Source: an uncultured Clostridia bacterium
GTDB lineage: Bacteria; Bacillota; Clostridia; Christensenellales; Borkfalkiaceae
DNA length: 64,000 bases
NCBI GenBank assembly: GCA_947627955.1
Contig: CANQXZ010000001.1
Span: 120,477-184,476 of the forward strand
Direction: 5' to 3'
Under the pieces are notes generated by a model that saw only the letters and a program-made list of their open reading frames with translations, did not search any database and was not told the origin of the DNA. The translations under genes and the position numbers were made by a program. This document shows positions 25,182 through 64,000 of the stretch, one piece after another; the stretch's first letter is position 1; the number at the start of each line of letters is the position of its first letter.

Positions 25182-25200
25182 AATTTACACCTCTTTTTAC

Positions 25201-38001: not shown

Positions 38002-38010
38002 TTTATCCTC

Positions 38011-42755: not shown

Positions 42756-42756
42756 T

Positions 42757-43146: not shown

Positions 43147-43234
43147 ATTGATTGCTCCTTTTGGCGTAAATGCCGTCGGAAGCAATCTATTTATGAATTT
43201 GTGTGACTTCCGCCGGTTGCGGCCAAGTCAAAAA

Positions 43235-47576: not shown

Positions 47577-47586
47577 ATATCACCCA

Positions 47587-49032: not shown

Positions 49033-49055
49033 ATATTTTTCTTATGGATTGTTAG

Positions 49056-50531: not shown

Positions 50532-50550
50532 TATTAATTCCTCATATGTC

Positions 50551-50867: not shown

Positions 50868-53552
50868 TTACTCCTTATTATTTTTATTAAATATTTTTTC
50901 AAAGAAACTCATATGTTCCTTTAAATATTTATCAATGAAATTTTTTACTTTAGGCAAATCCGGTTCTGATATTAGTTCACATATCTTTTTAAAAAGCTTC
51001 TTATAATCTCCTCTACTTAAAGTATCTACATATTTTGAAACAAAAAATATAAGATTACTTGCTAATCTATCGTTCACATTAAAGGCATACGCAAAAATAT
51101 CAGCTAAAATTTCGTAATATTCTTTGTTGCTTAGCTTTTCAAGTGGATTTAATATTGCCGCTATTGAACCATTAAGATATGATATCGGCCTTTCAAAAGT
51201 AGCTCTTAATAGTGTGTTGCTCTTGTATCCTTTTTCCTTATATTCGCAATACAGTTGCAATATATCAATAAAATAATTTGAAATGAACTGTTCCAATTGA
51301 AAATCATTAAGCCAAGAATACAGAGTATTCTGTTTTATACAATTGGTTAACAGATCTTCACCCAATTTTCCTCTTACAAGTAATATTGTCCGTAAGATAG
51401 AATAATTGTCTGGAATCTTAAAATGTGCATCACGCAACCTTACGTTTAACTCATTTATGCTACGTAAATAAGTAGGAGCATAATTAATTAGCTCTTCCAT
51501 TGATAATGAAAAAATCTCCTGATTTAAGTAATCTAAAATCAAAATCATATCAGCAAAAGAATTCTCAAAATCTTTTAATTGATCGTAGAATTTTATACTT
51601 TCGGCTATTTTATCTTTTCCTTTAAGATTACCAAGATATAATTTTATTTTTTGTATATATATGCCACTATCATATCCAGTTCGATAATATTTATTAAAGT
51701 AGCTATCTAATGAGCGGAAATTAACCTTTGTTGCGGTTTTAAAAACATAAGCTTCTTTCCGGAATAAGAAATCTCTAAAATCATTCTTTTCTTTATTAAG
51801 GTTCTCTACACTTTCAAATAAGCTCTTATATATGTCTGAATACTTTATATATAAATCCATGAAATTTGCATTTCGCATATTATTGCTGATAAATGTAGTT
51901 ATCAAGTGTGTCTTTTCTTGTTCATTTTCTAGTGAACATATAACGCTGAAAGCAAATTCCATCGACTTTACATCTGAAATTTGGCATTTTACAAAATCGC
52001 CTAAAGCGTTCATAATTAACCAATTTAATGCTTTGTCGCCTAACTGTTTAGCGCAATTCAAATATAATTTGAATTCTTCCAAGGATCTATGAGTAATGGA
52101 TTTTCGAATTATTTTATCCATTAACATATATGCTTTATTGTTTTCCGCTTCACTCAAATTTAATGCAATCGAATTTACCAATGCATCAAAGACATAATAT
52201 AGTTCATTTGTGCCGTTTCGAGCCTCAATGTATCTTTCCCATTCAGAATTGTTTACAACCATTAAGGAATAATCATTCCAAGGGAACGGAGCCTTATTCT
52301 TAATTTCAGCTAAGCTTGATTGTGGAGTGCCCGAATATATATTTACGCCAAAAAGCGTCAACTCGGAAAAATAACGATTCATTATTGAATCTTTTATATA
52401 TCGGTCGGAAAAATCGTAAGTAAATTTTATGAGCGAGAGAATTTCATTCCCTTTACCCCACTTCCCAGAAATGATTACTTCATTATAAAGATTAAAAGCA
52501 ATTTCTTTTTCATTAATATAATGATATTTCAAAGCAATTTCTAAAGCTGATGAATATTCCGACGCACCTGTGAACCACCTGAAGTTTTTCTGATTTAAAT
52601 AATAAACCGCCAATGCTATATCAATATGGCATTGTGTCATTGCTATTATATTGTTTACCGACTCTATTTTCTTTAAAATGGCAAATAAAGTCGATGACTC
52701 AAGTGACTGCATAACATCGTTTATATATCTACCTAATACTAATTTTGAACATATTTTCTTTTCAAAATTAAAAACAATGTTTCCTGCCGCAAGTTCATCT
52801 TGGTAGTTAAATGTTGAACCAATCATGCTTGCAAATATATTTCGAATTTTAATGGGCGGCATGCCTGTAGTTGTTAGGGTATAATCCAGCTGAGTAGAAT
52901 ACTGCGTACAAAAAGTTGCATCATTAAAATAACTTGCAGGCAAAAGTGTACCTATAATGGCATAGAGTAGTCTGATATTTTCTTCCGTGTCATTAAAAGT
53001 AATCCTATCTAATGAACCATGTGTATTTATCACCGCTTGCAATAAAGATGCTATATCTTGTTTATATCCACCAAAAGCAAGTTTTTTAATTGCTTCTTCA
53101 CTTGCAATACTTTGTGTATTTAATTCAATAGGTGGAAGCGATGCGGGAGCAGGATCATCGTGCCATTCTTTATATGAGAGACTTGATTTAAATGCTTTAT
53201 GTTCAAAAATGCAATAAGGATTAAACCCTTGTAATTCATCAAATATAAAAGCGTGAATGATGAAGTTTCCGTTACGGCTATCTTGATCGCTATAAACTTT
53301 GCCAATATAGCTTGATTGCGCGACACAACGTCTCCCAGACGAAAGAATAAAATAGGCATACTTCTTTGGGAAAAAGGCCTTAATTTCCTCATCTGTTGGT
53401 TCATATGGCGCATTTGGAGCCTTTTTATAGGACATAAGTTTGATAATTTCATCACATTCTGATTTTGTGACATTGTCAGATTTTGCCCATACACTAAATG
53501 CTCCGGATTTATCTTTTCCACAAGCCGTATAAATCATTTGATAGGCTAACAT
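50868..53552 (-). CDS. large all-helical protein, N-terminus resembling GTPase-associated protein 1 (GAP1)
   Basis: 894 aa behind an AAGGAG RBS. MLAYQMIYTACGKDKSGAFSVWAKS follows the QxxYTSxxxGxxGxxGFQxxAxS-type opening I associate with GAP1-N domains. This comes from memory of a motif, not a search. It lies directly downstream of a Zn-ribbon GTPase. Confidence 0.45.
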   Translation of the reverse strand: MLAYQMIYTACGKDKSGAFSVWAKSDNVTKSECDEIIKLMSYKKAPNAPYEPTDEEIKAFFPKKYAYFILSSGRRCVAQSSYIGKVYSDQDSRNGNFIIHAFIFDELQGFNPYCIFEHKAFKSSLSYKEWHDDPAPASLPPIELNTQSIASEEAIKKLAFGGYKQDIASLLQAVINTHGSLDRITFNDTEENIRLLYAIIGTLLPASYFNDATFCTQYSTQLDYTLTTTGMPPIKIRNIFASMIGSTFNYQDELAAGNIVFNFEKKICSKLVLGRYINDVMQSLESSTLFAILKKIESVNNIIAMTQCHIDIALAVYYLNQKNFRWFTGASEYSSALEIALKYHYINEKEIAFNLYNEVIISGKWGKGNEILSLIKFTYDFSDRYIKDSIMNRYFSELTLFGVNIYSGTPQSSLAEIKNKAPFPWNDYSLMVVNNSEWERYIEARNGTNELYYVFDALVNSIALNLSEAENNKAYMLMDKIIRKSITHRSLEEFKLYLNCAKQLGDKALNWLIMNALGDFVKCQISDVKSMEFAFSVICSLENEQEKTHLITTFISNNMRNANFMDLYIKYSDIYKSLFESVENLNKEKNDFRDFLFRKEAYVFKTATKVNFRSLDSYFNKYYRTGYDSGIYIQKIKLYLGNLKGKDKIAESIKFYDQLKDFENSFADMILILDYLNQEIFSLSMEELINYAPTYLRSINELNVRLRDAHFKIPDNYSILRTILLVRGKLGEDLLTNCIKQNTLYSWLNDFQLEQFISNYFIDILQLYCEYKEKGYKSNTLLRATFERPISYLNGSIAAILNPLEKLSNKEYYEILADIFAYAFNVNDRLASNLIFFVSKYVDTLSRGDYKKLFKKICELISEPDLPKVKNFIDKYLKEHMSFFEKIFNKNNKE

Positions 53553-53600: not shown

Positions 53601-54716
53601 TTATTTTTTAACTGTCTGAATATAGTGATTTTCCGCTAATAACCATAAAAGCGGATCCAGAACGCGCCTAGGATTAATCTTGTTACCTGATAGCTTTGTC
53701 CCATTAGGAACACCTCCTAGTGCCGTCAAGCCAAAGAACGCATATTTTTCAAACTGCTTCATTTGCTGCACAAGCTCGGCATCCAGCCAGTTTTCCAAAA
53801 GATCTTGCATTTCAATATTGACGCTCTCGAAATCTGTTTCAACAAATACCCCACGCGCAAGATGTTCTGATTCCGAATGTAAACAACTATCTTCCTTTAA
53901 AAGATTGTACTGTTCCAACGCATCTATTTTTGTGAATGCCAAAGCAAGAGGAATCTTAATGGTTCCTCGTATATTCTTTACATCTCTGATATTTTGGACT
54001 ATTCGACTCAGAACTTCAACAACATCTGTATTTTGTGGAGGAAGCGACATTTTACCCTGAAGCTTCTCTCTAATTGTTGATACTTGCAAAGGATCAAGCA
54101 ACAAAATGATACCATCAGCATTAGGAATATAACGATTATTGACTAGCATATCATCGGTGGAGTCAAGATTTTCACCTGCAGTATCATAAAAGGACAATGC
54201 TGCCACTTTTTTAATATGATTATTTTTGTCCATAAAGCGCAAAGGAAAAATCAACGGAGGGACGTCATCTTGACTTGTGGCGTCAACTACAGAACCGTGT
54301 TTAAAAAGCGGCTCATAATAGTGGTCATTATAATACTGCCGAGACTCCTCACTACTAGCTAAACTTAAGGTACAATTAAAACTAGACGTCATCTTTCGCT
54401 TAATTTCGTTGATAAGTACGCCTATGTAATTGGACTTGCCGGAAGCCTTCGCACCAAGTAGCGCAACAGACAAGCTCTCTTCATTAAGAAAATCAGATGG
54501 AATTTCTTTATTAACAACACTGCAAAATACTGACTTTCGAGCATCTTTGCATTTCATGCATTTTTGCTTATCTTTATTTGGAATCCAGCCAGCTGCATCT
54601 TTGACTACGGTTGAAATACACTTATCGGGTTTCCCGGGAACATTATATGAGCATTTCAAACCACTGGAAATAATGTCATGCTTACCGTAACAATATGGAC
54701 ACGTAAATTTTTTCAT
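53601..54716 (-). CDS. soluble zinc-ribbon P-loop GTPase (TRAFAC-like motif order)
   Basis: 371 aa with CPYC...C...C...CMKC ribbons. G1 is GAKASGKS (54455-54432), G3 YDTAGE, G4 TKID and G5 LTALGG. Confidence 0.8.
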   Translation of the reverse strand: MKKFTCPYCYGKHDIISSGLKCSYNVPGKPDKCISTVVKDAAGWIPNKDKQKCMKCKDARKSVFCSVVNKEIPSDFLNEESLSVALLGAKASGKSNYIGVLINEIKRKMTSSFNCTLSLASSEESRQYYNDHYYEPLFKHGSVVDATSQDDVPPLIFPLRFMDKNNHIKKVAALSFYDTAGENLDSTDDMLVNNRYIPNADGIILLLDPLQVSTIREKLQGKMSLPPQNTDVVEVLSRIVQNIRDVKNIRGTIKIPLALAFTKIDALEQYNLLKEDSCLHSESEHLARGVFVETDFESVNIEMQDLLENWLDAELVQQMKQFEKYAFFGLTALGGVPNGTKLSGNKINPRRVLDPLLWLLAENHYIQTVKK

Positions 54717-54738: not shown

Positions 54739-55479
54739 TTATCGATTAACTGATTGGACCCATTGACGATCTCGCTTATTTTCTTCATCTTGTGCCTGAA
54801 TTTCTTCTTCAGTAGCACCTCTTTCTCTCATACTTTCGATTTTTTTATCTCCCTGATATTTAATCAAGTCAATCTCATCTTGCTTCACTTGCTTTGTATA
54901 TTTCTCTGAAGCAATTCTATCTTCATCACTGATACTTTTGCCTTTGGCTTCACGTTCCGCTAATTTTTCATTGATTTTATTTCGCATATCAATGTCATGC
55001 GATTGCAAATCAACTTTTTCTTGATGAACAGTATCTCGAAATTCAATCCCTTCTTCCTTCATCTGATAGCTTAGCTGCTCTTGTGATGCAATATTTTTTT
55101 CATATTGCGCTCTTAATGAGTCAAATGTCTTTGAATCACCACGTTCAACAGCTTTTGCCATATCTCTAGAAATAGCCTCATTTTTTGCATCAAGCTGCTC
55201 ATAAGCCTGCTTTTTTTGTTCGCCGAAAAATTGAAGCCTTTGCTGATTATTCATATCCCACATCTTACTTTTTTGTTCATCAATCGCCATTTCAGCTTTT
55301 TCGTAATCGCGGGAATTGGGGTCTATTTTTTTTAGTTCCTCTTCCTGTGCCTCAATATTTTTTTTATAATCTTGAGTGGCCGCATATGCTTCCGGAGCAT
55401 TACGGCTAGCCATGGCAGAGTTCCAACGTCTCTCATATATTTCGGAATATTTCTGATATTCTTTCATCTTATTTGTCAT
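54739..55479 (-). CDS. highly charged coiled-coil protein, unknown function
   Basis: 246 aa, rich in K, E, Q and D throughout. No TM helices or enzymatic motifs. Confidence 0.6.
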   Translation of the reverse strand: MTNKMKEYQKYSEIYERRWNSAMASRNAPEAYAATQDYKKNIEAQEEELKKIDPNSRDYEKAEMAIDEQKSKMWDMNNQQRLQFFGEQKKQAYEQLDAKNEAISRDMAKAVERGDSKTFDSLRAQYEKNIASQEQLSYQMKEEGIEFRDTVHQEKVDLQSHDIDMRNKINEKLAEREAKGKSISDEDRIASEKYTKQVKQDEIDLIKYQGDKKIESMRERGATEEEIQAQDEENKRDRQWVQSVNR

Positions 55480-55491
55480 ACAACAATCTCC

Positions 55492-56691
55492 TTAAAATAC
55501 ATTTAATCTAGTATGCTCGTTCGTCTTCTTTGAATAATAAATTGCCTGATTTTCCGGAAGTTGCGCAAATACATCGGGTAAATATACACGTTCCTTCTCA
55601 GTTGTAATCGATGTACTACTTTGCTTACTAGCACCACCTCTTCCATTTAAGCGATCCCAAAATGTTGGATTACTTACTCCTTTTGTTACAGTTTCTTTTT
55701 GTCTTTCATATGTACCAAAAAATTCTGAACAAAATTCCTTATTCTTGTTAGAGTTCTGTTTAAAGAAAAAATAACTGTCGGCATACTCGATCCACTCATT
55801 AGACTGTTCAATTAAGTTACTCAAATCTTGTATAGTATATAAAACATTGCAACTCTTTCCACCCTTTATAAGCTTCTGTATCCCAGAAGCAATTAATATA
55901 TCATTAGGTGTTCCATCAACAAGCACATTAACACTAGACACACTTGACGTGGCAACATTAAAACGCCCTATTGCATCTATAATAGCTGACATAATAAGAA
56001 TGGACTCCTCATGTTTTGCAGAAAAGTCTAAGCTTATTTCTATAATTGGTTTGCTCTTAAAAATCTGTTCTAAGCTCTTGTTTCCTGATAATACATAGCC
56101 AGAAACATTATTTGCAAAATCATAGAAATATGCCTCAAGTTCTCGAATTTCAGCCCTAATGCTATTTAAGAACCGATCATTTCTAGCCTGCTCAACACCA
56201 GTACTATATTTCATATTAAGATCTTCAATTTCTTCAATAGGAAAATCCAACAAATTATTTATTTTAACTGTTTTACCAGCTTTTTTAGCAAGATTTCTAA
56301 GAAGTGATATATAATTCTGAAAGCTCATTCTTTTGCTTTTATCAACTTCGTTATACATATCAAAAAGCTTGATAATATAAGCATTAATATCTGTATCAGT
56401 CATACCTGAGAAAATATCAATTTGCTCAGTTGTACTATTATCTGTGCAATCAACATCAAATATTAATCTGCTTGATGTTGTAATTGAAGGATATGATGAA
56501 AGCCCTGCTACTTGATCACGAAATATAATTACACCATATCCTCTGTTTATAGAGTCAATAGCATAATTTCTCATAATAACTTCTGCCCCTTGTTTTGAAG
56601 CGCCAGAAATTAATACATTTCCTAATGATGCATCAAGTGAAATTGTTCGACTACTTTTTGTAGCACCTCTAATAAAGTTTAATAATCCCAT
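55492..56691 (-). CDS. TraD/VirD4-like (FtsK-HerA superfamily) paralog with degenerate Walker motifs
   Basis: 399 aa, alignable by eye with the upstream ATPase. VLISGASKQGAE replaces LIGGIGSGKT and VLVDGTPND replaces FVCDEFKLLP. The C-terminal YTIQDLSNLIEQ region is conserved. Confidence 0.55.
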   Translation of the reverse strand: MGLLNFIRGATKSSRTISLDASLGNVLISGASKQGAEVIMRNYAIDSINRGYGVIIFRDQVAGLSSYPSITTSSRLIFDVDCTDNSTTEQIDIFSGMTDTDINAYIIKLFDMYNEVDKSKRMSFQNYISLLRNLAKKAGKTVKINNLLDFPIEEIEDLNMKYSTGVEQARNDRFLNSIRAEIRELEAYFYDFANNVSGYVLSGNKSLEQIFKSKPIIEISLDFSAKHEESILIMSAIIDAIGRFNVATSSVSSVNVLVDGTPNDILIASGIQKLIKGGKSCNVLYTIQDLSNLIEQSNEWIEYADSYFFFKQNSNKNKEFCSEFFGTYERQKETVTKGVSNPTFWDRLNGRGGASKQSSTSITTEKERVYLPDVFAQLPENQAIYYSKKTNEHTRLNVF

Positions 56692-56709
56692 GCTTCCACC
56701 GTTTTGTAC

Positions 56710-58053
56710 TTATTTACGTGATTTAAATTCGCTAAAACCAAATTTAAATGGTTCAGCACTATTAATTGAAATTATAGCTTCACCAAGTTTTAGGTTGGCA
56801 ACATCCCAGTCTTCGACAACATGTGCTGTCGCAATAGTTTCTTGTACTGTTGTTGACTTATATGTAGTACATTTTCGATTTTCGCCTGACCGCTCTTTAA
56901 TGTAATTGCGAGTCGAATAATCACTAACCTTAAAAGCAAATAAATTTAGAAATCCAGAGAAAATGTTTTTTGCCATGTTTTCTCCATAAATTTCAATTAT
57001 TTGATCAACATTCTGGACACCTATCATGAATTTAATGCCTAAACTTCTACCAAAATTAACAGCATCATCAATATGTTGCAAGTTGGGTAGAAGTTTAAAT
57101 TCATCACATACGAAAAACACATTGCCATCGCTTTTTGAGCGGCATAAGGCTTCTTTTATTGCCAAATCAAATAATAAACTGTAAATAGGTGTCAACATAC
57201 CGCCAATGCCAATGTCATATTCAATAAATATTTTTTTACCACCCTTATTCCGTACTAATTCACGAATTGAAAGAGTCCCTCTTTTTGCAAAATTTCCCAC
57301 AAAAACAGACCTAACCACTTGCTGAAGTTCTGCTAAAACGCCAAGTGCTTGCCCCATTGCATCCAATGGTATATAGCTCTTCATTGCAGCGAAATTATTG
57401 TACATACTAAGAATACTATGATACCACTGAATATTCTCTTTCTTCATAGCTTCAGAAATAGTATAATTATCGCTTTGTACTGTTCCTCTCCCTTTCATCA
57501 ATACAAAATGATATAGTATAGCGGACATTATGTCTTTAGCTGCTTGAGGGAAAAAAGCATTATCGCCTGCTTTTTTCAATTTGTCGGCAAATAATGAATT
57601 TGATATCTCGATTACATCTTCTTTTAAACCAACAGAGCTATCCAGCTCATTAATGATGTTCCAATAATCAGTTCCAGTGCTACCACATGCAGAGGAATCG
57701 TTGCTAATCACTACGTCGCCTGGTCTATAGAACTCTTTATAAAAGTCTCCTTTAGTATCGAAAATAATCATTACATCACTAGATGACAATTGCGGTACTA
57801 TATTTTGAAGTATTTGATTGAATGTATTAGTTTTACCTGAGCCTATCCCTCCAATAAGCATAAGATGTTGACTTAAAAGTTTTTCAGTCAAAACAAATCT
57901 ATCATTAGCACCATTTCCATTCTTTCCATTAAAAACGATATTGATTGGATGTGGGCATTGCGGTGATGACTGTTGCATAGTTTGCGCCGCTAACGGGACA
58001 TTCAAATTAAGTTCCTGTCCTTCACATACTCGCACTGTCGTCTGGGCCATCAT
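56710..58053 (-). CDS. TraD/VirD4 (type IV coupling protein)-like P-loop ATPase without TM anchor
   Basis: 447 aa with Walker A GGIGSGKT (57852-57829), IIFDTKGDFYKEFY, Walker B FFVCDEF and GVQNVDQIIEIYGENMAKNI. Confidence 0.75.
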   Translation of the reverse strand: MMAQTTVRVCEGQELNLNVPLAAQTMQQSSPQCPHPINIVFNGKNGNGANDRFVLTEKLLSQHLMLIGGIGSGKTNTFNQILQNIVPQLSSSDVMIIFDTKGDFYKEFYRPGDVVISNDSSACGSTGTDYWNIINELDSSVGLKEDVIEISNSLFADKLKKAGDNAFFPQAAKDIMSAILYHFVLMKGRGTVQSDNYTISEAMKKENIQWYHSILSMYNNFAAMKSYIPLDAMGQALGVLAELQQVVRSVFVGNFAKRGTLSIRELVRNKGGKKIFIEYDIGIGGMLTPIYSLLFDLAIKEALCRSKSDGNVFFVCDEFKLLPNLQHIDDAVNFGRSLGIKFMIGVQNVDQIIEIYGENMAKNIFSGFLNLFAFKVSDYSTRNYIKERSGENRKCTTYKSTTVQETIATAHVVEDWDVANLKLGEAIISINSAEPFKFGFSEFKSRK

Positions 58054-58829
58054 GATCTTTTGATTCCCCCTGAATTGTTTTGTCCACTTAGTTCATTAGA
58101 TTTTGACACACCATTCAATCCAATATCCTGCATATTGACATTGTTTCTATTTTGATTCTGTAATTTAGCATAATCTTCAGAAACTTGTTTATCAATGTCT
58201 TTTGATGGCGAAGCAGTATAATGAAATCTTTCATTAGCCTGTTTATCGTAAAGTTCTATGTATTTTACTTCTTCCTCAGAATTTACTATACCTTTGGCAC
58301 CAACATATACTGATGTACACTCCATCACATTGCCTGTGTTGGGATTTTTAATTCCATTAAATTTTTCATAAAGTTCTGGACGATCCATTTTCTTTACTTC
58401 TTTAATTTCTGTATAGAACTCTCTTTTCAACTTTCTATCGTCCATATACATACTTCCGGGAATTCGGGTTCTTTCAGTTCCTGCCCTCATATTGTAATTT
58501 TCTCTTATAACGTTTGCACGCTTTTCCCGCAAGTCATCATGCGCTTGCGATAAAATATCATCATAAGATGTTCCCTTATATGAACAAGCATAATCTCCAT
58601 GCTTGTCTTCAAAATCCATCCCTACAATCTGTCTGTTCTTGTTGTCATCATAAATCCATACTCTCGTAGCCGTGAGTACACCATCCTTGCCTGGACGAGG
58701 ATCTCTAATTGTTGTATCAATATGACCATTAGCACTCTCTATGATATTTTCATGTGAAGAACCAATGCCATTATAACTATAACAACCCATTTCGGAATCG
58801 GATAATGGTGATTCATAATAATAAGCCAT
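58050..58829 (-). CDS. hypothetical protein, translationally coupled to the TraD-like ATPase
   Basis: 259 aa with no recognisable motif. Its stop overlaps the downstream ATG (ATGA at 58050-58053). Confidence 0.6.
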   Translation of the reverse strand: MAYYYESPLSDSEMGCYSYNGIGSSHENIIESANGHIDTTIRDPRPGKDGVLTATRVWIYDDNKNRQIVGMDFEDKHGDYACSYKGTSYDDILSQAHDDLREKRANVIRENYNMRAGTERTRIPGSMYMDDRKLKREFYTEIKEVKKMDRPELYEKFNGIKNPNTGNVMECTSVYVGAKGIVNSEEEVKYIELYDKQANERFHYTASPSKDIDKQVSEDYAKLQNQNRNNVNMQDIGLNGVSKSNELSGQNNSGGIKRS

Positions 58830-58869
58830 TGCTATCCCCCTTTTTTTAATTATAAATTATAAAGAACCT

Positions 58870-61800
58870 CTACAGTTTTACCACTTCTTTAAGATGAACT
58901 AAATTTGTTTCCTCATTTAGAAATAGAGCATATTTCATATTGGCAGCAGCTGGATTTACCATTATTGAGACTTTTGCTGTATATTTTTTTGATAATAATC
59001 CTTTTTTTAAAACTATTTTATCAATACGCTCACATAGCTTACCAGCATTTTTGTTCATAGGGCGTGGATAACCTTGCATAATAAGAAGTTTTGGAATCTC
59101 AGTTGCTTTATCAGATTCGAATGTGATATTAATCTTAAATGGTTTAATTGTTGATACTACATAATCAATGCTATATAATACCGTAATAGCCTCTCTATAA
59201 TCAATTGGCGGTTCAAGCTTAATTGCAGGCGAATAAGAAATGTTCCCATCTTCTTTGAATGCAACGAAAATGGTTATATAATTTACGGTATCTGTTTTAA
59301 GCTTGATTTCAAATTTACCACTTTTAGAAAAATCTTCGACCTTATAAGAGAATTTCTCTCCACCCCCATCGATATTTTCTATGTATCGATCATGCCCAAT
59401 TCTAACAATAATAGATTGTGCCTTGGGGTGTAGTGCGCCACTTACGGTAACTGTTCCATTATTAATGGAATGCGTTAGCTTTTTAATTCCCTCAATTGTG
59501 TTAATAAGGCGCGGTGGAGATACAACAAAAAGTTGCTCTGTACTTACAATAGGATAAACATAAAATATATTGCCAGCCGATAATGAAAAAATTATTTCGC
59601 CATTCGCATTAGCTGAAGATTCTATTTGAGCCAATCCCTTGCAAATTGAGTTGAAATCTAAATACTTGAGTGGTGTATTTGTAGGAATTGATAGTTTCTT
59701 GTTAGAAACATATAACTTCACTTTCCCAGCATAACCTGTAGCGCAGGTGAATACATATCTATTTGATTCAATTGGCTCTATCCTTACATCTTCAAGTGGA
59801 GTGGCTTTTTCGTAAGGCTTAAATACCGCGCAAATTCCGCGCGACTGGACAAGTTTACCCTTTAAATCATAATTACAAATAACAAGATATGCACTTTGTC
59901 CGTCGCATTTATTATCGGTAAAACCATTTAAAGAACATTCAACCCGAACACCTTCGCCTGAACGAGTAGGTGCTATTGTGCCGCTGTTTTTCCATACATC
60001 AATTGATTTTACATTTTGAGGAGCTTCCCAAATAACCTTAATACCACCGTCAACAACTTCCTGTTGCATGTTTGAAACATCAGCAAAAATAATCGCTGAT
60101 TCGCTTGTGACTGCAATTGAAGATTTTACCCCGTACCGCTCAACAAAAACAGCATAATAATACGGTGTAGCAGATACAATATTTACATCTTCAAAAAATT
60201 TAACTGAAAGACCACAATCTACAAGGGCACCATCTTCAGCAGAGATTGGAGCAACACCTATTTTCTTGATTATAGTGTAAGAAATAAATTCCTGTTTTGC
60301 ATTATCATCCCACTCTAAACGTACCTTTCCTTTTTCAGTAGTAATACGAAGGTTGGTTACTGCTTGGGGTGGGATCTTCTGCATTATTTGGCGAGCATCA
60401 GCATTATCATCACAGATATCAATTGCTTTTGCTGCAGTTGAAATTGCAAGCGATATATTACCTTGAGCCAAATACTGTTTTGCGGCATCAACTTGTCGTT
60501 GAGCATTTTGTACAACGGCAGAAATATCTGACACCAATTTGCGTGAATTATCAATATTGTAAGTGCTATATTTTACATTTAATGATTTAGCAATAGCTAG
60601 AGCTGATTGATAACAACGCTTAGCTATCATTTGTTGAATCTTTGAAACGTCTTCTTTATACTTAGCGCCTGTCGTTTCCTCTTGTCGTACTCTTGACTGA
60701 ATAACACTCTCATATTCTGCAACTTTTTTTGCTACGGTTGAATCAGCATGAGTAGCGTAATTGGGAACAACGTTTTTTACCTCCAAAAATACCGATTGTA
60801 AATCGCTTATCTCTACCATCGGGCGACTTAAAAGTTTATCAATTTTTTCGCAACACTGATTAAACATATCGTGGGCACGATGTGTTGCACCACAAGTAGG
60901 GCAGCCTTTATCCTCTTTGGTAAAAGGTGTCTTCTGTTTGCAGTTCCAACAAATGACTTCCAAAGGTTTCCCACAATGAGGACAACTCTTTGCACCCTTT
61001 ATATATAATTTTCCGCAATCCGGATAAGGACAAAATTCAAAGTTATTACCCTCCGTTTTCCCAACAATGGTGATTTGAAAGTATTTGCATCCTATGGCGA
61101 GAATTCTTTCCGCCTCATCAATTTGAACCTTTAAAAGTGCTATAACCGTGGAAGTATAATTTTTATACTCATCCATGGTCATTTCTTTAATGCCAAAAGA
61201 CTTCCTTTTCTCAAAATCACTCCACACGTCGTTTTTGAGAACAAGATATTGATCATAAGTTCTGCGTGCCTCCTTGCTATCCAAAAGTAATTTTTTTGCT
61301 GTAGCGCAAAGTTGACTAATAGCCTGTTTCCGCTTAAGGTCATTCGTCTTACTGCTGTCGCTATACATTTTATCTGAGGCTGCTTGTATTTCAGAATTAG
61401 ACGATGTGGATTGTACTCCTAAAAAATCATATAAATCTTTTTTCCCAAGAGTATCTAATCTCTTTTCTGTCTGTTGATAATCCGAGAATGGTATACTCGC
61501 ATCAATATTATCTATAATCTTAACACCCAACCCACTTAAATAGGAAATTGCATTTAACAGTTCTGCCTCAGAAAAAAAGATTATAGGCTTATTCGCTGTA
61601 TTGCAGATATCAATTACTTCACTTTTTAAAAGGGTTTTTCTTGTTTGACAAAGAATCTCAATTACACCAACGGCTTCTTTAAGTTTATATGCTTTGGCAT
61701 CCGCAGCTTCTTTGGCGCGCCCGCCTCGCTCAGGAATGTATTTTCCTGTGGCGGCATCATAAACGGAATCATTGCACATGATTTCGATGGCGTCTGTTTT

Positions 61801-61977
61801 TAGCTCAATCAGCCTTCGAGTCAATATGTCCCCCTTGGGACTCCCGGTAACTGTTTTTATTTTTGCATCAATTTTATTCTTGTCTGTTTCAGACAGATCA
61901 ATCTTAAAAGCAATGAAATAATTATATTCGGGATTTTTCAGCTCTTCTGCAGTTCTAAAGGGGCTAACCTGTGCCAT
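58870..61977 (-). CDS. 1035-aa multidomain protein: J-domain-like segment without HPD, double zinc ribbon, helical repeat, FN3/Ig-like beta domains
   Basis: KDLYDFLGV (61440-61414) ... EARRTYDQYL follows the J-domain helix I-IV pattern, but no HPD is visible. Also CPYPDCG..CPHCG..CWNCK..CPTCG ribbons, a TPR-like AKQYLAQGNISLAIS segment, and repeated V.L.W...... segments. Confidence 0.6.
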   Translation of the reverse strand: MAQVSPFRTAEELKNPEYNYFIAFKIDLSETDKNKIDAKIKTVTGSPKGDILTRRLIELKTDAIEIMCNDSVYDAATGKYIPERGGRAKEAADAKAYKLKEAVGVIEILCQTRKTLLKSEVIDICNTANKPIIFFSEAELLNAISYLSGLGVKIIDNIDASIPFSDYQQTEKRLDTLGKKDLYDFLGVQSTSSNSEIQAASDKMYSDSSKTNDLKRKQAISQLCATAKKLLLDSKEARRTYDQYLVLKNDVWSDFEKRKSFGIKEMTMDEYKNYTSTVIALLKVQIDEAERILAIGCKYFQITIVGKTEGNNFEFCPYPDCGKLYIKGAKSCPHCGKPLEVICWNCKQKTPFTKEDKGCPTCGATHRAHDMFNQCCEKIDKLLSRPMVEISDLQSVFLEVKNVVPNYATHADSTVAKKVAEYESVIQSRVRQEETTGAKYKEDVSKIQQMIAKRCYQSALAIAKSLNVKYSTYNIDNSRKLVSDISAVVQNAQRQVDAAKQYLAQGNISLAISTAAKAIDICDDNADARQIMQKIPPQAVTNLRITTEKGKVRLEWDDNAKQEFISYTIIKKIGVAPISAEDGALVDCGLSVKFFEDVNIVSATPYYYAVFVERYGVKSSIAVTSESAIIFADVSNMQQEVVDGGIKVIWEAPQNVKSIDVWKNSGTIAPTRSGEGVRVECSLNGFTDNKCDGQSAYLVICNYDLKGKLVQSRGICAVFKPYEKATPLEDVRIEPIESNRYVFTCATGYAGKVKLYVSNKKLSIPTNTPLKYLDFNSICKGLAQIESSANANGEIIFSLSAGNIFYVYPIVSTEQLFVVSPPRLINTIEGIKKLTHSINNGTVTVSGALHPKAQSIIVRIGHDRYIENIDGGGEKFSYKVEDFSKSGKFEIKLKTDTVNYITIFVAFKEDGNISYSPAIKLEPPIDYREAITVLYSIDYVVSTIKPFKINITFESDKATEIPKLLIMQGYPRPMNKNAGKLCERIDKIVLKKGLLSKKYTAKVSIMVNPAAANMKYALFLNEETNLVHLKEVVKL

Positions 61978-62005
61978 AATATACTCCTGTTTTATTGATT
62001 AGATT

Positions 62006-64000
62006 TTACTTTAAAGAATTGCCAACGACTTCTGTCGCAATAGATGATGCCACTTCTTTAAATGTGGCAGAAAGTTGACTCAAATCAACTTTCTTCCCTT
62101 TCCCACTGGAAATGCGACTGAGAAATGCCTCATCTGCATCACCAATGCCAATACCATAAATAATAATCCCGTCAGCTTTAGCTCGATCTGCAGCGGTTTC
62201 CTCTGTTGATTGATCATTCCAATATCCATCAGTAAGAACGACAATGACTCTTGGACAATCGCGTGTAAATTTCTTGTAATTATTGTTTATTGGCGTTTCT
62301 GCATTGCAATATCCAACATCATTAACATCAACGTCATCAATTGCATGATATAAGCGTCTCTCATCATTCTCCCATTTGCATTTATATTGTGAACGATCGG
62401 CAAAACTGATAACAGAAATGAAGACTCTGTTTAAGTCAAACTCCTTCACAAAATCCTTTGCTGCGCGTCGCGCTTCTCTAATTCTATTACCACTCATACT
62501 GCCAGAAGTATCTATCATTAGCATAATCTCAATTCTGCTTTTACGTTTTGCCTCCTCCTCTGCTTCTTTCTTTTCGCGCTCTAAACGTGCTATAATCTCG
62601 CTCATAGTTTCATTAGTATTCTCACGAGTAGATGATAAAACTATGCCATTATCCAAGCAAGCATTAACTTCAACAACACCATTTGAGTTATATAAAAAAT
62701 TAACTTTAATCTTGCTCTTATTGTCTTTTGGCATGCCAGTGATTGAATAAGCACCAATAATATCACACTCGTAAGGATCGCGAGCTTCTCCTTGCAAAAC
62801 ATACACTTGCAACTTCTCGCCTGAAAAAGTATATTCCCTACTAAACGGTTCATTGACCTTACTATTTTTTCTTATAATAATACTATTAATGTAGCTTTTT
62901 TCATCGCTTGCAAGCGCAAGCATGCCGAGACTATGTGCAGTAATATCTTGAATATCGCTATTGTGAATTGTAAGCGTAATCGGAGCCGTGGGCATAGAGG
63001 TACCGCTCGACTTGGCTGAATTGGCGGATGCAGAGCTTGCAACGGTTAACGTAATGGAATTACTCACGCAGAGTTCTGCTTGCATAGCTGCGCCTGTTGC
63101 TACTATCGTATCGACATTAATATCTTTTGTAATGGGCGGACGACCATATTCTTTGATTATCATGTCCTTGACTTGAGGCATTCTTGTTGAACCACCTACC
63201 AAAACGACTTCATCAATATTATTCCACCCAAATGGACGATTCTGGGCTTCACTAATTTCATCAAAGCAACTTTTTATCAACAGAATTGTTTCATATAGAA
63301 GACTATAGGTTTGATCATTAAAATCCTCTCGGGTAACAGTATATTTACCAAGATACCCATCGCATTGGATCGTAATAATAGTTGAAGCGACTGAGGAAAG
63401 TAACTTCTTGGCTTCCTCACACTTCACCTGTAATTCTTTAAGATCTTCTTCGTGGTCATCAATACTGACACCAAATTCAGAATAAAATTTCTCTTTAACT
63501 TGATTGATAAGCGTTTCGTCCCAGTCCTTTCCGCCCAATTGATGATTTCCGTTTGTTGCAAGAACATCAATTCGTGTTCCATTTACATTAGCAACTGTTA
63601 CATCAAATGTGCCACCACCGAGATCGTAGACAAGAACATTCTTTTCCTTACCACCTGTCAAGCCATATGCGATGATTGCCGAAGTAGGTTCATTGATTAT
63701 CTTTAAGACTTTTAACCCAGCCTTCTGACCGGCCCGAATTGTTGCTTCGCGTTGTTTATCATTAAAATAGGCAGGCACTGTAATAACCGCCCCATCAATA
63801 TCAATGCTATTGGTACTCTTTATGTCTTGAATAAGGTGTGCAAGATAAAGTCCCGACAACTCCTCAGCAGAATACTCCTGCCCATTTATGAAAGCACTCC
63901 AATTAGAATCGCCCATCATACTTTTATAAAAGGCAGCTGTATTAACATTGCCTGATTTTTGTTCATTCTTTGCATCTTCACCGACCATAATGCTTCCATT
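62006..64000 (-). CDS. Hsp70 (NBD plus SBD-beta) fused to a C-terminal vWA domain; N-terminus beyond the right edge
   Basis: AVITVPAYFNDKQREAT, IINEPTSAIIAYG, VYDLGGGTFDVT (about 63635-63601) and VVLVGGSTRMPQV. An SBD-like QVYVLQGEA segment, then vWA MIDAS MIDTSGSMSG (62518-62489). The reading frame stays open (NGSI) upstream of the listed Met. Confidence 0.9.
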   Translation of the reverse strand, partial: NGSIMVGEDAKNEQKSGNVNTAAFYKSMMGDSNWSAFINGQEYSAEELSGLYLAHLIQDIKSTNSIDIDGAVITVPAYFNDKQREATIRAGQKAGLKVLKIINEPTSAIIAYGLTGGKEKNVLVYDLGGGTFDVTVANVNGTRIDVLATNGNHQLGGKDWDETLINQVKEKFYSEFGVSIDDHEEDLKELQVKCEEAKKLLSSVASTIITIQCDGYLGKYTVTREDFNDQTYSLLYETILLIKSCFDEISEAQNRPFGWNNIDEVVLVGGSTRMPQVKDMIIKEYGRPPITKDINVDTIVATGAAMQAELCVSNSITLTVASSASANSAKSSGTSMPTAPITLTIHNSDIQDITAHSLGMLALASDEKSYINSIIIRKNSKVNEPFSREYTFSGEKLQVYVLQGEARDPYECDIIGAYSITGMPKDNKSKIKVNFLYNSNGVVEVNACLDNGIVLSSTRENTNETMSEIIARLEREKKEAEEEAKRKSRIEIMLMIDTSGSMSGNRIREARRAAKDFVKEFDLNRVFISVISFADRSQYKCKWENDERRLYHAIDDVDVNDVGYCNAETPINNNYKKFTRDCPRVIVVLTDGYWNDQSTEETAADRAKADGIIIYGIGIGDADEAFLSRISSGKGKKVDLSQLSATFKEVASSIATEVVGNSLK

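What the first reader, a model, noticed from the sequence alone, without database searches (positions are those of the whole stretch)
62006..64000. Hsp70 fused to a vWA domain with an intact MIDAS motif
The ORF has canonical Hsp70 nucleotide-binding motifs (VPAYFND.QR, IINEPTSA, DLGGGTFDV, LVGGSTRMP) and an SBD-beta-like segment. After a charged linker (EREKKEAEEEAKRK) it ends in a vWA domain beginning MIDTSGSMSG (DxSxS MIDAS).

It is not the housekeeping dnaK, for three reasons:
- It has low-GC island composition.
- No hrcA, grpE or dnaJ neighbours are present.
- The helical lid is replaced by the vWA domain.

vWA domains are recurrent ligand-capture modules in NTPase-driven conflict systems such as vWA-MoxR and TerY-type systems. 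Replacing the AAA+ partner with an Hsp70 is unusual.
Basis: seen in the sequence. Interest (0 to 1): 0.78.

Follow-up and report, generated by a model that had tools for sequence, protein, structure and literature searches.

The report
Hsp70–vWA chaperone of a DO-GTPase conflict system
The gene is a real Hsp70 chaperone whose helical lid is replaced by a metal-binding vWA adaptor domain. It is a conserved part of a GTPase-centred bacterial conflict (probably anti-invader) system that was predicted by computer in 2020 and has never been tested, here carried on a mobile low-GC island.

Summary
On the minus strand, 62006–64000 encodes an Hsp70 nucleotide-binding domain (NBD), a peptide-binding β-domain (SBDβ), one helix, and a vWA domain (Pfam HSP70 3.8e-86, VWA 1.9e-19). 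The window cuts off the first 46 residues. A near-identical contig supplies them, giving 710 aa.

The fusion is not an artefact. More than 110 close clusters and about 100 distant clusters (24–57% identity) share the architecture.

The metal-binding MIDAS site is nearly intact. DxSxS and the distal Asp are invariant. The Thr position is strictly T or N across the family, and the window has N.

- extra Hsp70 paralogues in 14 of the 16, and a GrpE-like protein in all 9 whose upstream genes were profile-scanned or are readable far enough;
- Hsp70–vWA;
- a roughly 1000-aa zinc-ribbon / fibronectin type III (FNIII) repeat protein, shown in the close family to carry a J-like domain without HPD;
- DO-GTPases and GAP1-N2.

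This is the Hsp70/GrpE/DnaJ-FNIII theme of the GAP1-N2 DO-GTPase systems of Kaur et al. 2020. That paper's text does not mention the vWA fusion.

Verdict: a new member of a known, untested kind. Moderate interest.

The parts
62006..64000 (-). Hsp70-vWA gene. The 5' end is cut by the window: 664 of 710 codons are present, and 62006-62008 is the stop codon.
   Evidence: Full length was recovered from L020. More than 110 full-length homologues of about 700 aa.
63062..64000 (-). Hsp70 nucleotide-binding domain (full-length aa 47-359). Lys72, Glu150, Asp172, Thr177 and the GGSTRMP adenosine motif are present.
   Evidence: Pfam HSP70 3.8e-86. The catalytic residues are invariant in 112 sequences. 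AlphaFold model and coordinate mapping.
62954..63061 (-). Extended interdomain linker. Two ITLT[VI] beta-strand segments flank a variable, disordered Ser/Ala/Gly-rich insert.
   Evidence: pLDDT is below 50 at residues 367-381 of the model. This block has the highest column entropy, 2.48 bits. Coordinates.
62615..62953 (-). Hsp70 substrate-binding beta-domain (SBD-beta).
   Evidence: phmmer against PDB Hsp70 SBDs, E about 1e-5, aligned through the linker, HSLGM, VLQGE and NGVVEV motifs. Model strands at residues 401-503.
62540..62605 (-). Single charged helix. It corresponds to lid helix A and the start of helix B, and joins SBD-beta to vWA. The rest of the lid is absent.
   Evidence: Model helix 509-530. 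The PDB alignment ends here.
62030..62533 (-). vWA domain. MIDAS residues: Asp at 62510-62512, Ser at 62504-62506, Ser at 62498-62500, Asn (T/N position) at 62303-62305, Asp at 62228-62230.
   Evidence: Pfam VWA 1.9e-19. Alignment to the integrin alpha-X I-domain and other solved vWA domains. Residue conservation. Coordinates.
58870..61977 (-). 1035-aa partner protein. Domains: N-terminal domain; J-like domain without HPD (aa 181-242, nt 61252-61437); two zinc ribbons (about nt 60892-61032); helical region; about five FNIII-like beta-sandwiches (aa 541-1031, nt 58885-60357).
   Evidence: Pfam DZR and sub-threshold DnaJ. The family profile hits only J domains in the PDB, best E 1.9e-5. AlphaFold pLDDT 89.1. 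Top Foldseek matches are tandem FNIII repeats, E 6.8e-11.
54739..58829 (-). Window-specific four-gene accessory cassette: a 259-aa protein, a 447-aa TrwB/TraD/HerA-FtsK-type ATPase, a 399-aa protein and a 246-aa charged coiled-coil protein.
   Evidence: Pfam TrwB_AAD_bind 1.7e-39 and PADLOC mad8 4e-17. No tblastn match to any of the four cassette proteins in any of the 16 related loci with readable flanks, L020 included. Present in three other contigs of the same element.
53601..54716 (-). DO-GTPase (371 aa) with two N-terminal zinc ribbons, a Walker A motif (GAKASGKS) and a Walker B motif with Glu (DTAGE).
   Evidence: Pfam DO-GTPase2 9e-09. Sequence.
50868..53552 (-). GAP1 protein with the N2-type N-terminal domain (894 aa).
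   Evidence: Pfam GAP1-N2 1.5e-15.
46164..50862 (-). Membrane-proximal part of the system: a 2-TM protein (50551-50862), a TM + zinc-ribbon DO-GTPase (49056-50531), a 4+1-TM protein (47587-49032) and a second TM + zinc-ribbon DO-GTPase (46164-47576).
   Evidence: Pfam DO-GTPase2 1.7e-14 and 1.4e-10. Hydropathy scan.
45084..46091 (-). Transglutaminase-core (papain-like thiol peptidase fold) protein. It sits at the end of the conserved operon and is a candidate effector or processing enzyme.
   Evidence: Pfam Transglut_core 1.7e-09. Syntenic in L006, L008, L010 and L013.
37678..41468 (-). Left end of the island: two large serine recombinases plus a resolvase fragment.
   Evidence: Pfam Resolvase, Recombinase and Zn_ribbon_recom. 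GC step at about 38 kb. Housekeeping genes to the left.

Best explanation
**What it is.** The gene encodes a 710-aa specialised Hsp70. It has a catalytically competent ATPase domain and a canonical peptide-binding beta-domain. The alpha-helical lid and C-terminal tail are replaced by a vWA domain with a metal-binding MIDAS site. It is one of the constant subunits of a GAP1-N2-type DO-GTPase conflict system (the Hsp70/GrpE/DnaJ-FNIII theme of Kaur et al. 2020). That system is carried on a low-GC island bounded on its left by serine recombinase genes, in a gut Clostridia-type genome.

**Proposed mechanism (inferred, not shown).**
1. The downstream 1035-aa protein senses a signal through its variable FNIII repeats.
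2. Its N-terminal J-like domain, which lacks HPD, engages the Hsp70 module.
3. The vWA domain uses its MIDAS metal to capture an acidic residue of a partner or target protein. This tethers the Hsp70 to that protein and stands in for the missing lid.
4. ATP hydrolysis, followed by nucleotide exchange by the GrpE-like factor encoded upstream in relatives, remodels or assembles the complex.
5. The DO-GTPase/GAP1 switch and the membrane-associated components then license the output. Candidates for the output are the transglutaminase-like peptidase, the TM proteins and, in this window, a TrwB/HerA-type ATPase cassette.

**What is shown:** the domain architecture, conservation of the catalytic and MIDAS residues, the synteny, and the co-inheritance of modules.

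**What is inferred:** the partners, the order of events, and the defence role.
For: **Architecture**
- Pfam HSP70 3.8e-86 and VWA 1.9e-19.
- The AlphaFold model of the 87%-identical full-length homologue has pLDDT 87.8 and pTM 0.73. It shows NBD 1-358, SBD-beta about 393-505, one helix 509-530 and vWA 533-700.
- Top Foldseek matches are full-length DnaK and BiP, E about 1e-47.

**Active-site conservation in 112 sequences**
- Lys, Glu, Asp and Thr of the ATPase are invariant, as are MIDAS D-x-S-x-S and the distal Asp.
- The MIDAS fourth position is only T or N.

**The fusion is real and old**
- All of the 120 best hits that are not cut short are about 700-aa HSP70+VWA proteins; the two shorter ones are P0039 (633 aa) and P0055, the nonsense-truncated copy in L020.
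- About 100 of the top 150 representatives of 50%-identity clusters show one stretch covering SBD-beta through vWA, at 24-57% identity. Pfam confirmed HSP70+VWA in six distant members scanned.

**Context**
- All 10 genome loci and 5 distant metagenome loci place the gene beside the large ZnR/FNIII protein.
- Fourteen of these 15 also show a second Hsp70, and a DO-GTPase and/or GAP1-N2 is present in all 15.
- A GrpE-like gene is seen in all nine loci whose upstream genes were profile-scanned or are readable far enough.
- The window itself has GAP1-N2 (1.5e-15) and three DO-GTPase2 proteins.

**Match to the published description** (PMC7159879 section 29)
- HSP70, GrpE, an NBD-only HSP70 and an FNIII protein fused to DnaJ.
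- The partner's J-like domain is confirmed by a family profile that hits only PDB J domains.
- Its FNIII repeats are confirmed by model and Foldseek.
- An NBD-only Hsp70 of 369 aa lies just upstream in the same element.

**Modular co-inheritance**
- Against L012, Hsp70-vWA (78-94%) and the first 400 aa of the J-like protein (80-90%) stay similar. The FNIII part (26-42%), the DO-GTPase (about 55%) and GAP1-N2 (14-41%) do not.
- Against L001 the pattern is reversed.
- This fits a functional pairing of the Hsp70 module with the J-like module.

**Variable surface.** The most variable folded segment of the protein surrounds the MIDAS loops.
Against: - No experiment exists for any DO-GTPase/GAP1 system. 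One paper in the library describes these systems; a second only contains the phrase 'double-GTPase'.
- PADLOC has no model matching the Hsp70-vWA, the J-like protein, the GAP1 or the DO-GTPases, so the defence role is unproven.
- The J-like domain lacks HPD in all 11 sequences aligned (9 orthologues and 2 short paralogues). Classical J-domain stimulation of the ATPase is therefore doubtful.
- The MIDAS Thr is Asn in the window.
- A GrpE-like gene was not seen in the 3.2 kb upstream available for the same element (L020), and it lies outside the window in any case.
- The tools gave no model coordinates, so the position of the vWA relative to the SBD-beta cleft is unknown.
- The text of Kaur et al. 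does not mention an Hsp70-vWA fusion, and their Figure 6B could not be read.
Confidence: 0.7

Rival explanations
1. The protein is a self-contained NTPase-vWA conflict module of the vWA-MoxR or TerY type. Hsp70 has simply replaced the AAA+ ATPase, and the module works independently of the neighbouring GTPase genes.
For: - vWA with a near-complete MIDAS is fused to an NTPase chaperone.
- There is a weak vWA-TerF-like match, E 5.6e-4.
- Kaur et al. themselves treat the GTPase/Hsp70 systems as analogues of MoxR-vWA systems.
Against: - No MoxR AAA+, PP2C or Ser/Thr kinase was found among the island ORFs scanned.
- All 15 related loci examined for downstream context keep the gene in one operon with DO-GTPase and/or GAP1-N2 and the FNIII protein.
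Confidence: 0.12
2. The Hsp70 paralogues, including the vWA fusion, act as NTP-dependent polymerising or multimerising scaffolds rather than as chaperones. They would be actin-fold, cytoskeleton-like assemblies, with vWA cross-linking the units. This is the role Kaur et al. suggest for tubulin and Hsp70 in these systems.
For: - The Discussion of PMC7159879 proposes that Hsp70 and tubulin form multimeric assemblies.
- Two to four Hsp70 paralogues occur per operon.
- There is a Pfam MreB_Mbl match at 1.1e-13.
- In the sister systems the equivalent slot is filled by tubulin.
Against: - The HSP70 profile is far stronger than the MreB profile (3.8e-86 against 1e-13).
- The canonical SBD-beta, the GrpE-like exchange factor and the J-like domain are the hallmarks of a client-binding chaperone cycle.
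- There is no evidence of filament-forming interfaces.
Confidence: 0.1
3. The operon is part of the island's transfer or secretion machinery. The TrwB/TraD-like coupling ATPase would move DNA or protein, and Hsp70-vWA would chaperone or dock the substrates.
For: - A TrwB_AAD_bind / TraD-like ATPase lies 4 kb downstream.
- The island has large serine recombinases and a phage-type sigma factor.
- A TrwB-like ATPase directly follows the Hsp70-vWA gene in L017.
Against: - The ATPase cassette has no tblastn match in any of the 16 related loci with readable flanks.
- No relaxase, VirB4, pilin or other conjugation genes were found among the island ORFs scanned.
- The ATPase scores far below the TraD and VirD4 equivalog cut-offs, 86 bits against 521.
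Confidence: 0.05
4. Artefact or ordinary chaperone. Either two separate genes (Hsp70 and vWA) were fused by an assembly or frameshift error, or this is a divergent housekeeping DnaK/HscC-type chaperone.
For: In the near-identical contig L020 the gene is called as two ORFs of 477 aa and 216 aa.
Against: - The L020 split is caused by one nonsense substitution (AAA to TAA at window 62707) in a contig of 4x coverage. It is not a frame difference.
- More than 200 independent clusters encode the continuous fusion.
- The DnaK and HscA equivalog cut-offs are missed by a wide margin.
- The operon context is not that of a housekeeping gene.
Confidence: 0.02

Closest known systems
GAP1-N2-type DO-GTPase conflict systems, HSP70/GrpE theme (Kaur, Burroughs, Iyer and Aravind, eLife 2020, PMC7159879)
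   Same: - GAP1 with an N2 domain.
- Paralogous DO-GTPases with N-terminal zinc ribbons and TM helices, and a Walker B glutamate.
- An FNIII-repeat protein with an N-terminal DnaJ-like domain.
- HSP70 paralogues, including an NBD-only copy.
- A GrpE-like factor (seen in relatives).
- A Firmicutes host and membrane-proximal components.
   Different: - The paper's text does not describe an Hsp70 whose lid is replaced by vWA. It mentions vWA only for the tubulin and kinase themes.
- The J-like domain here lacks HPD.
- The window adds a four-gene TrwB/HerA-type ATPase cassette and a transglutaminase-core protein, neither of which is mentioned for these systems.
DnaK-DnaJ-GrpE chaperone system (canonical Hsp70)
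   Same: - The NBD has all catalytic and nucleotide-binding motifs.
- There is a hydrophobic interdomain linker and an SBD-beta of canonical topology.
- Dedicated J-like and GrpE-like partners are encoded alongside.
   Different: - There is no alpha-helical lid (only helix A) and no C-terminal tail; a vWA domain takes their place.
- The linker carries a roughly 17-30-aa disordered insert.
- The J-like partner has no HPD.
- The residue equivalent to DnaK R167 (position from my own knowledge) reads Lys in the family alignment; I did not align DnaK directly.
- It scores 267 bits against a 648-bit DnaK cut-off.
- It is island-borne with multiple paralogues.
MoxR-vWA chaperone/co-chaperone pairs and the ternary VMAP and iSTAND systems
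   Same: An NTP-driven chaperone is coupled to a MIDAS-bearing vWA adaptor in a predicted conflict system that has constant core modules and variable sensor or effector modules.
   Different: - The NTPase is an actin-fold Hsp70, not a AAA+ MoxR.
- The two activities are fused in one chain.
- No VMAP or iSTAND third component is present. The third components are DO-GTPase and GAP1.
Hsp70-like NBD/SBD modules (CnuD/CnuCD) with TerY-type vWA genes in Type III CoCoNuT McrBC systems (PMC11090510)
   Same: - Hsp70-like NBD+SBD units are recruited into conflict operons that also encode MIDAS vWA proteins.
- FtsK/HerA/VirB4-type ATPases are inserted next to the vWA genes.
   Different: - In CoCoNuTs the Hsp70-like ATPase motifs are degenerate, and the module is fused to McrB or McrC rather than to vWA.
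- Here the ATPase residues are invariant, and there is no McrBC or HEPN.

Membership tests
Hsp70 family (PF00012) | Actin-fold NBD with the phosphate-1, phosphate-2 and adenosine motifs and the catalytic Lys, Glu, Asp and Thr | tested here: met
   Pfam 3.8e-86. K, E, D and T, DLGGGTFD and GGSTRMP are invariant in 112 sequences. Phosphate-1 (GIDLGTTYS) lies in the 46 aa recovered from L020.
Hsp70 family (PF00012) | Substrate-binding beta-domain following a hydrophobic linker | tested here: met
   phmmer against PDB Hsp70 SBDs at E about 1e-5. Model strands at residues 401-503.
Hsp70 family (PF00012) | Alpha-helical lid (helices A-E) over the SBD | tested here: not met
   There is only one helix (model residues 509-530) before the vWA domain. 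PDB alignments end at helix A and the start of helix B.
Housekeeping DnaK / HscA equivalogs | Score above the NCBIfam equivalog cut-off | tested here: not met
   267 bits against 648 (NF001413), 257 against 823 (TIGR02350) and 233 against 709 for HscA.
vWA domain (PF00092) | vWA Rossmann-like fold | tested here: met
   Pfam VWA 1.9e-19 and VWA_2 1.2e-12. The model shows alternating beta/alpha elements over 533-700 at pLDDT 83-95.
vWA domain (PF00092) | Complete MIDAS, DxSxS...T...D | tested here: inconclusive
   DxSxS and the distal D are invariant. The Thr position is Asn in the window and is T (57) or N (55) in the family. The register against the integrin I-domain is uncertain by one residue. 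Metal binding was not tested.
GAP1-N2-type DO-GTPase system, HSP70 theme (Kaur et al. 2020) | GAP1 protein with an N2-type N-terminal domain in the operon | tested here: met
   PF20013 at 1.5e-15, window 50868-53552. GAP1-N2 is also present in L012, L013, L014, L017 and L018.
GAP1-N2-type DO-GTPase system, HSP70 theme (Kaur et al. 2020) | One or two DO-GTPases with N-terminal zinc ribbons, a TM-bearing paralogue, and a Walker B Glu | tested here: met
   PF19993 hits at 9e-09, 1.7e-14 and 1.4e-10. The Cys pairs and the DTAGE motif are read from the sequence. TM helices are seen in the 491-aa and 470-aa paralogues.
GAP1-N2-type DO-GTPase system, HSP70 theme (Kaur et al. 2020) | FNIII-repeat protein fused to a DnaJ domain | tested here: met
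   The family profile hits only J domains in the PDB, best E 1.9e-5. Top Foldseek matches of the model are tandem FNIII repeats, E 6.8e-11. Caveat: HPD is absent and Pfam DnaJ is sub-threshold.
GAP1-N2-type DO-GTPase system, HSP70 theme (Kaur et al. 2020) | GrpE and a second, NBD-only HSP70 | tested here: inconclusive
   These lie outside the window. An NBD-only Hsp70 of 369 aa is immediately upstream in the same element (L020). GrpE-like genes are present in L012, L013, L017 and L018, but none is seen in the 3.2 kb available upstream in L020.
MoxR-vWA ternary systems / TerY-P triad | MoxR AAA+ ATPase, or a PP2C phosphatase plus Ser/Thr kinase, next to the vWA | tested here: not met
   No such Pfam hits in the island ORFs scanned.
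Known anti-phage systems in PADLOC-DB v2 | A match of the core proteins to a PADLOC model | tested here: not met
   There are no hits for the Hsp70-vWA, J-like, GAP1 or DO-GTPase proteins. Only the accessory ATPase hits mad8 and HerA models.

The most novel reading that the evidence does not exclude
The vWA domain is not merely a tether. In this reading it functionally replaces the Hsp70 lid, so that substrate capture needs both the hydrophobic SBD-beta cleft and a MIDAS metal contact to an acidic residue. The hypervariable face around the MIDAS would directly recognise invader proteins. The Hsp70-vWA would then be a fused chaperone and co-chaperone that acts as the specificity-determining sensor of the system. 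That would be a new way for an Hsp70 to select clients.
Probability: 0.15. Interest if true: 0.8.

Novelty: new member of a known kind. Interest (0 to 1): 0.45.

Why it matters
Hsp70s are among the best-studied molecular machines, and substrate trapping by the alpha-helical lid is central to how they work. A widespread bacterial lineage has swapped the lid for a metal-dependent vWA adaptor. It has also acquired its own GrpE-like and HPD-less J-like partners inside a GTPase-switched conflict operon. That makes it a natural experiment in re-targeting the Hsp70 cycle.

The DO-GTPase/GAP1 systems have been predicted but never tested. This window gives a compact, island-borne example with clear mutational targets: the ATPase residues, the MIDAS residues and the J-like domain.

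The window also shows modular recombination. The Hsp70-vWA gene and the J-like N-terminus form one block. The FNIII repeats, the DO-GTPase and the GAP1-N domain form another. This pattern predicts which proteins touch each other.

The system class and its logic were already published in 2020. This is therefore a well-documented example with one under-described component, not a new kind of system.

Tried and rejected
- **E. coli genomes.** megablast of 58000-64000 and of 20000-28000 gave no match, so the host is not E. coli.
- **PADLOC.** There were no hits for the core proteins.
- **Literature.** Strings such as 'Hsp70-vWA' gave zero papers. 'GAP1-N2' and 'double-GTPase' gave one relevant paper. 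Hsp70 + anti-phage + vWA returned only the CoCoNuT papers and a jumbo-phage review. The one supplement of Kaur et al. held as text has no HSP70, GrpE or GAP1-N2 entries.
- **Source genome.** I tried to read the window's own 192-kb NCBI contig beyond position 64000. The exact look-up of the 1035-aa protein was not on record. The ATPase look-up returned only short metagenome contigs. The cluster tables gave no organism names.
- **Viral contigs.** A scan with the family alignment used generic NBD patterns. It returned only ordinary Hsp70s of 30-34% identity, many of them from giant-virus (GVMAG) contigs. In 78 of the 80 the match ended by query residue 565, and the other two reached 600-622, so no complete vWA domain was covered.
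- **tRNA scan.** No tRNA gene marks an integration site.
- **Cassette comparison.** The window's TrwB-like ATPase shares only the P-loop region with the L017 ATPase. The two are independent acquisitions of the same superfamily.
- **Rejected readings.** I rejected the frameshift-artefact, housekeeping-DnaK and MoxR/TerY-membership readings, as set out under the rival explanations and the membership test.


Full report
**1. The observation**

The ORF lies on the minus strand. It runs from its stop codon at 62006-62008 to the window edge at 64000, with no stop or frame break.

- Pfam gives HSP70 at 3.8e-86 (aa 22-312 of the 664 visible residues, matching profile positions 87-376).
- Pfam gives VWA at 1.9e-19 (aa 492-635) and VWA_2 at 1.2e-12.
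- The segment between the two domains, searched alone, matches solved Hsp70 substrate-binding domains at E about 1e-5. The alignment runs from the interdomain linker through the HSLGM, VLQGE and NGVVEV motifs and stops at the first lid helix.

The island composition is real. GC is 0.30-0.39 from about 37.7 kb to the window end, against about 0.50 to the left.

**2. The missing N-terminus and the frameshift question**

A metagenome contig, L020, matches window 59731-64000 over 4270 bp with a single mismatch. It extends 3.3 kb further. It supplies the missing 46 residues, MKKINVGIDLGTTYSAVATF..., which include the phosphate-1 motif. The full-length protein is 710 aa.

The single mismatch turns Lys478 into a stop codon in L020 (AAA in the window at 62707, TAA in L020). 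Gene callers therefore split the L020 copy into a 477-aa Hsp70 and a 216-aa vWA protein. L020 has only 4x coverage, so this is either a sequencing error or a natural nonsense allele. It is not evidence that the window's fusion is an artefact, for two reasons:

- All of the 120 best database hits that are not cut short are continuous HSP70+VWA proteins of about 700 aa, at 52-87% identity; the two shorter ones are P0039 (633 aa) and P0055, the L020 fragment itself.
- An exhaustive search with only the SBD-beta-to-vWA part found about 100 further representatives of 50%-identity clusters among its top 150. These are 680-780 aa long and align in one stretch across both domains at 24-57% identity. 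Pfam confirmed HSP70+VWA in six of them.

**3. Anatomy**

I predicted the structure of the 87%-identical full-length homologue P0001 with AlphaFold, using a 112-sequence alignment. The model has pLDDT 87.8 and pTM 0.73. Its elements are:

| Element | Model residues |
|---|---|
| NBD | 1-358 |
| Beta-strand | 360-365 |
| Disordered, hypervariable Ser/Ala/Gly insert | 367-381 |
| Second beta-strand | 384-389 |
| SBD-beta | about 393-505 |
| Single charged helix | 509-530 |
| vWA fold | 533-700 |

The best Foldseek matches are full-length DnaK and BiP (E about 1e-47, target-normalised TM-score 0.71-0.82).

In the 112-sequence alignment the ATPase residues are invariant. These are Asp8, Thr11/12, Lys71, Glu149, Asp171, Thr176 and Asp178 in P0001 numbering, plus the GGSTRMP motif. 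This argues for an active ATPase.

The MIDAS D-x-S-x-S and the distal LTDG Asp are also invariant. The remaining MIDAS position is strictly Thr (57 sequences) or Asn (55 sequences). The window has Asn. The alignment to the integrin alpha-X I-domain places this loop at the MIDAS Thr, give or take one residue. 'Intact MIDAS' therefore needs the qualifier T to N.

Window coordinates for every element are given under 'parts'.

**4.

All genes from 43.8 kb to the window end are on the minus strand, with gaps of tens of bases or less. Reading downstream from Hsp70-vWA:

1. A 1035-aa protein.
2. A four-gene cassette containing a TrwB/TraD/HerA-FtsK-type ATPase.
3. A DO-GTPase (PF19993, 9e-09).
4. GAP1-N2 (PF20013, 1.5e-15).
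5. A 2-TM protein.
6. A TM-anchored, zinc-ribbon DO-GTPase.
7. A 4+1-TM protein.
8. A second TM-anchored, zinc-ribbon DO-GTPase.
9. A transglutaminase-core protein.
10. Small and TM proteins.
11. A sigma-70 region-4 protein.
12. Two large serine recombinases at the island's left edge.

The 1035-aa protein has a weak Pfam DnaJ match at aa 181-242 (E 0.018). A profile built from 11 sequences (nine orthologues and two short paralogues) hits only J domains in the PDB. The best is 6iws at 1.9e-5, and all 24 hits are J domains. The HPD tripeptide is replaced in every one of them, by YSDS, YKNS, YNEY and similar.

The AlphaFold model of this protein has pLDDT 89.1. It shows an N-terminal domain, the J-like helices, two zinc ribbons, a long helical region and about five beta-sandwiches. 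The top Foldseek matches are tandem fibronectin type III repeats (3t1w, 6.8e-11).

**5. Related loci**

Ten genome loci (all gut Clostridia MAGs from rabbit, goat and roe deer, including one Christensenella) and the closest metagenome contigs keep one gene order:

1. GrpE-like protein (340-417 aa).
2. Hsp70 (535-559 aa, one or two copies).
3. Hsp70-vWA.
4. Optionally, a roughly 300-aa paralogue of the J-like N-terminus.
5. J-like / zinc-ribbon / FNIII protein.
6. DO-GTPase.
7. GAP1-N2.
8. A small protein.
9. TM-anchored DO-GTPase.
10. Transglutaminase-core protein.

Five distant members, at 24-35% identity in the SBD-vWA region, show the same company. None of the 16 loci with readable flanks lacks it. 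Fourteen of the 16 show at least one further Hsp70 gene, L006 and L015 being cut off too close to the gene to tell. Of the 15 that extend downstream of the partner gene, all have a DO-GTPase and/or GAP1-N2.

In the same element as the window (L020), the upstream genes are an NBD-only Hsp70 of 369 aa, a Syd-like / Tox-HNH-HHH pair, and the end of a 550-type Hsp70.

**6. Comparison with the literature**

The library holds one paper that describes these components: Kaur, Burroughs, Iyer and Aravind, eLife 2020 (PMC7159879). [quoted passage not shown] That theme has HSP70, GrpE, a second HSP70 lacking the peptide-binding domain, and an FNIII-repeat protein fused to DnaJ. It sits alongside DO-GTPases with two N-terminal zinc ribbons, TM-bearing paralogues and a Walker B glutamate.

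Every feature that can be tested inside the window is met (see the membership table). The paper's text mentions vWA for the tubulin and kinase themes but not as a fusion to HSP70. Figure 6B could not be read, and the one supplement held as text has no relevant entry.

No paper contains 'Hsp70-vWA' or similar strings. No experimental work on any DO-GTPase system was found. PADLOC has no model for the core proteins.

**7. Evidence bearing on mechanism**

*(a) A chaperone cycle is retained.* The fusion keeps everything needed for an ATP-driven, client-binding Hsp70 cycle, and the operon supplies dedicated GrpE-like and J-like factors.

*(b) Identity profiles are mosaic.*

| Compared with | Hsp70-vWA | J-like aa 1-400 | J-like aa >400 (helical + FNIII) | DO-GTPase | GAP1-N2 |
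|---|---|---|---|---|---|
| L012 | 78-94% | 80-90% | 26-42% | about 55% | 14-41% |
| L001 | 41-85% | about 55-66% | 57-74% | 82-89% | 82% in the first 100 aa, 38-53% after |

A recombination breakpoint near residue 400 of the J-like protein therefore separates two co-inherited blocks. One block is Hsp70-vWA plus the J-like/ZnR module. The other is the FNIII repeats plus the DO-GTPase plus the GAP1-N domain. This is what one expects if the J-like module works with the Hsp70s, and if the GTPase works with GAP1-N2. Kaur et al. inferred the latter from co-evolution.

*(c) The sensor end is swappable.* The same J-like N-terminal module is found joined to LRR / Flg_new repeats instead of FNIII in other proteins. 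This fits a swappable sensor.

*(d) The MIDAS surroundings are variable.* Within Hsp70-vWA, the most variable folded stretch surrounds the MIDAS loops (P0001 residues about 561-620, 1.7-2.3 bits). The C-terminal vWA helix and the NBD motifs are the most conserved parts. In the pairwise comparisons this same segment drops to 40-46% identity while the rest stays at 63-85%.

**8. Proposed mechanism**

The steps below are inferred, not shown.

1. The FNIII or repeat end of the 1035-aa protein senses a signal.
2. Its J-like domain presents the complex to the Hsp70 module.
3. The vWA MIDAS captures an acidic residue of a partner or target. It acts as tether and lid substitute.
4. ATP hydrolysis and GrpE-driven exchange remodel the assembly.
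5. The DO-GTPase/GAP1 switch and the membrane components license the output.

I give the identity and system membership about 0.9, and this specific sequence of events about 0.4. Together that gives 0.7 for the statement as a whole.

The main alternative within the same system is that the Hsp70 paralogues multimerise as scaffolds, as Kaur et al. suggested.

**9. Verdict**

This is a non-housekeeping Hsp70-vWA fusion in a conflict island. It is not an isolated 'Hsp70 instead of MoxR' curiosity, and the argument from missing co-chaperones is wrong.

It is a new member of a known, computationally defined and experimentally untouched kind. One component is under-described: the lid-to-vWA swap. The window also has a specific accessory ATPase cassette.

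Interest is moderate, at 0.45.

Noticed in passing
window 54739-58829 (-): A four-gene cassette is inserted between the J-like/FNIII gene and the first DO-GTPase. It encodes a 259-aa protein, a 447-aa TrwB/TraD/HerA-FtsK-type ATPase with intact Walker A and B motifs (PADLOC mad8, 4e-17), a 399-aa protein and a 246-aa highly charged coiled-coil protein. None of its four proteins has a tblastn match in any of the 16 related loci, but it is present in three other contigs of the same element. An unrelated TrwB-like ATPase directly follows the Hsp70-vWA gene in the distant system L017. The CoCoNuT paper reports FtsK/HerA-type ATPases inserted next to vWA genes.
   Followed up: partly
window 62707; L020 position 4650: A near-identical metagenome contig has 1 mismatch in 4270 bp. 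That mismatch is a nonsense change (AAA Lys478 to TAA) that splits the gene into separate Hsp70 and vWA ORFs. It is either a low-coverage (4x) sequencing error or a natural knockout allele.
   Followed up: yes
window 58870-61977, near codon 400 (about nt 60780): There is an abrupt change in identity to orthologues. Against L012 it falls from 80-90% before about aa 400 to 26-42% after. Against L001 the trend is the opposite. This points to recombination that reshuffles an Hsp70-vWA + J-like block against an FNIII + DO-GTPase + GAP1-N block.
   Followed up: partly
window 62190-62450 (vWA residues about 561-620 in P0001 numbering): The loops around the MIDAS T/N position are the most variable folded part of the protein. 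Entropy is 1.7-2.3 bits, and pairwise identity drops to 40-46%. The C-terminal vWA helix is strongly conserved. No dN/dS test was done.
   Followed up: partly
L020 823-3117 (upstream of the window end in the same element): A Syd-like (SUKH-type immunity-like) gene and a Tox-HNH-HHH toxin gene sit between two Hsp70 paralogues. They are followed by an NBD-only Hsp70 of 369 aa whose phosphate-2 motif reads DLGGATFD.
   Followed up: no
proteins P0356, P0360-P0362: The N-terminal J-like/zinc-ribbon module of the 1035-aa protein is also found fused to LRR and Flg_new (Listeria-Bacteroides) repeats instead of FNIII repeats. The sensor end appears to be swappable.
   Followed up: no
window 37678-41468 (-) and 34263-36873 (-): The island's left boundary carries two large serine recombinases (570 and 582 aa) plus a 107-aa resolvase fragment. 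They abut housekeeping genes at about 50% GC: a PBP5-type D-Ala-D-Ala carboxypeptidase and an Orn/DAP decarboxylase. No tRNA gene is found anywhere in the window.
   Followed up: partly
window 41863-43185 (-): A sigma-70 region-4 protein (phrog_1740, RNA polymerase sigma factor, 1.5e-14) and a 201-aa protein matching phrog_1558 lie between the system and the recombinases. This hints that the island is phage-related.
   Followed up: no
window 62954-63061 (-): The Hsp70 interdomain linker is duplicated in appearance: ITLTV, then a disordered Ser/Ala-rich insert, then ITLTI. Both segments are predicted as beta-strands. The meaning for allosteric coupling is unknown.
   Followed up: no
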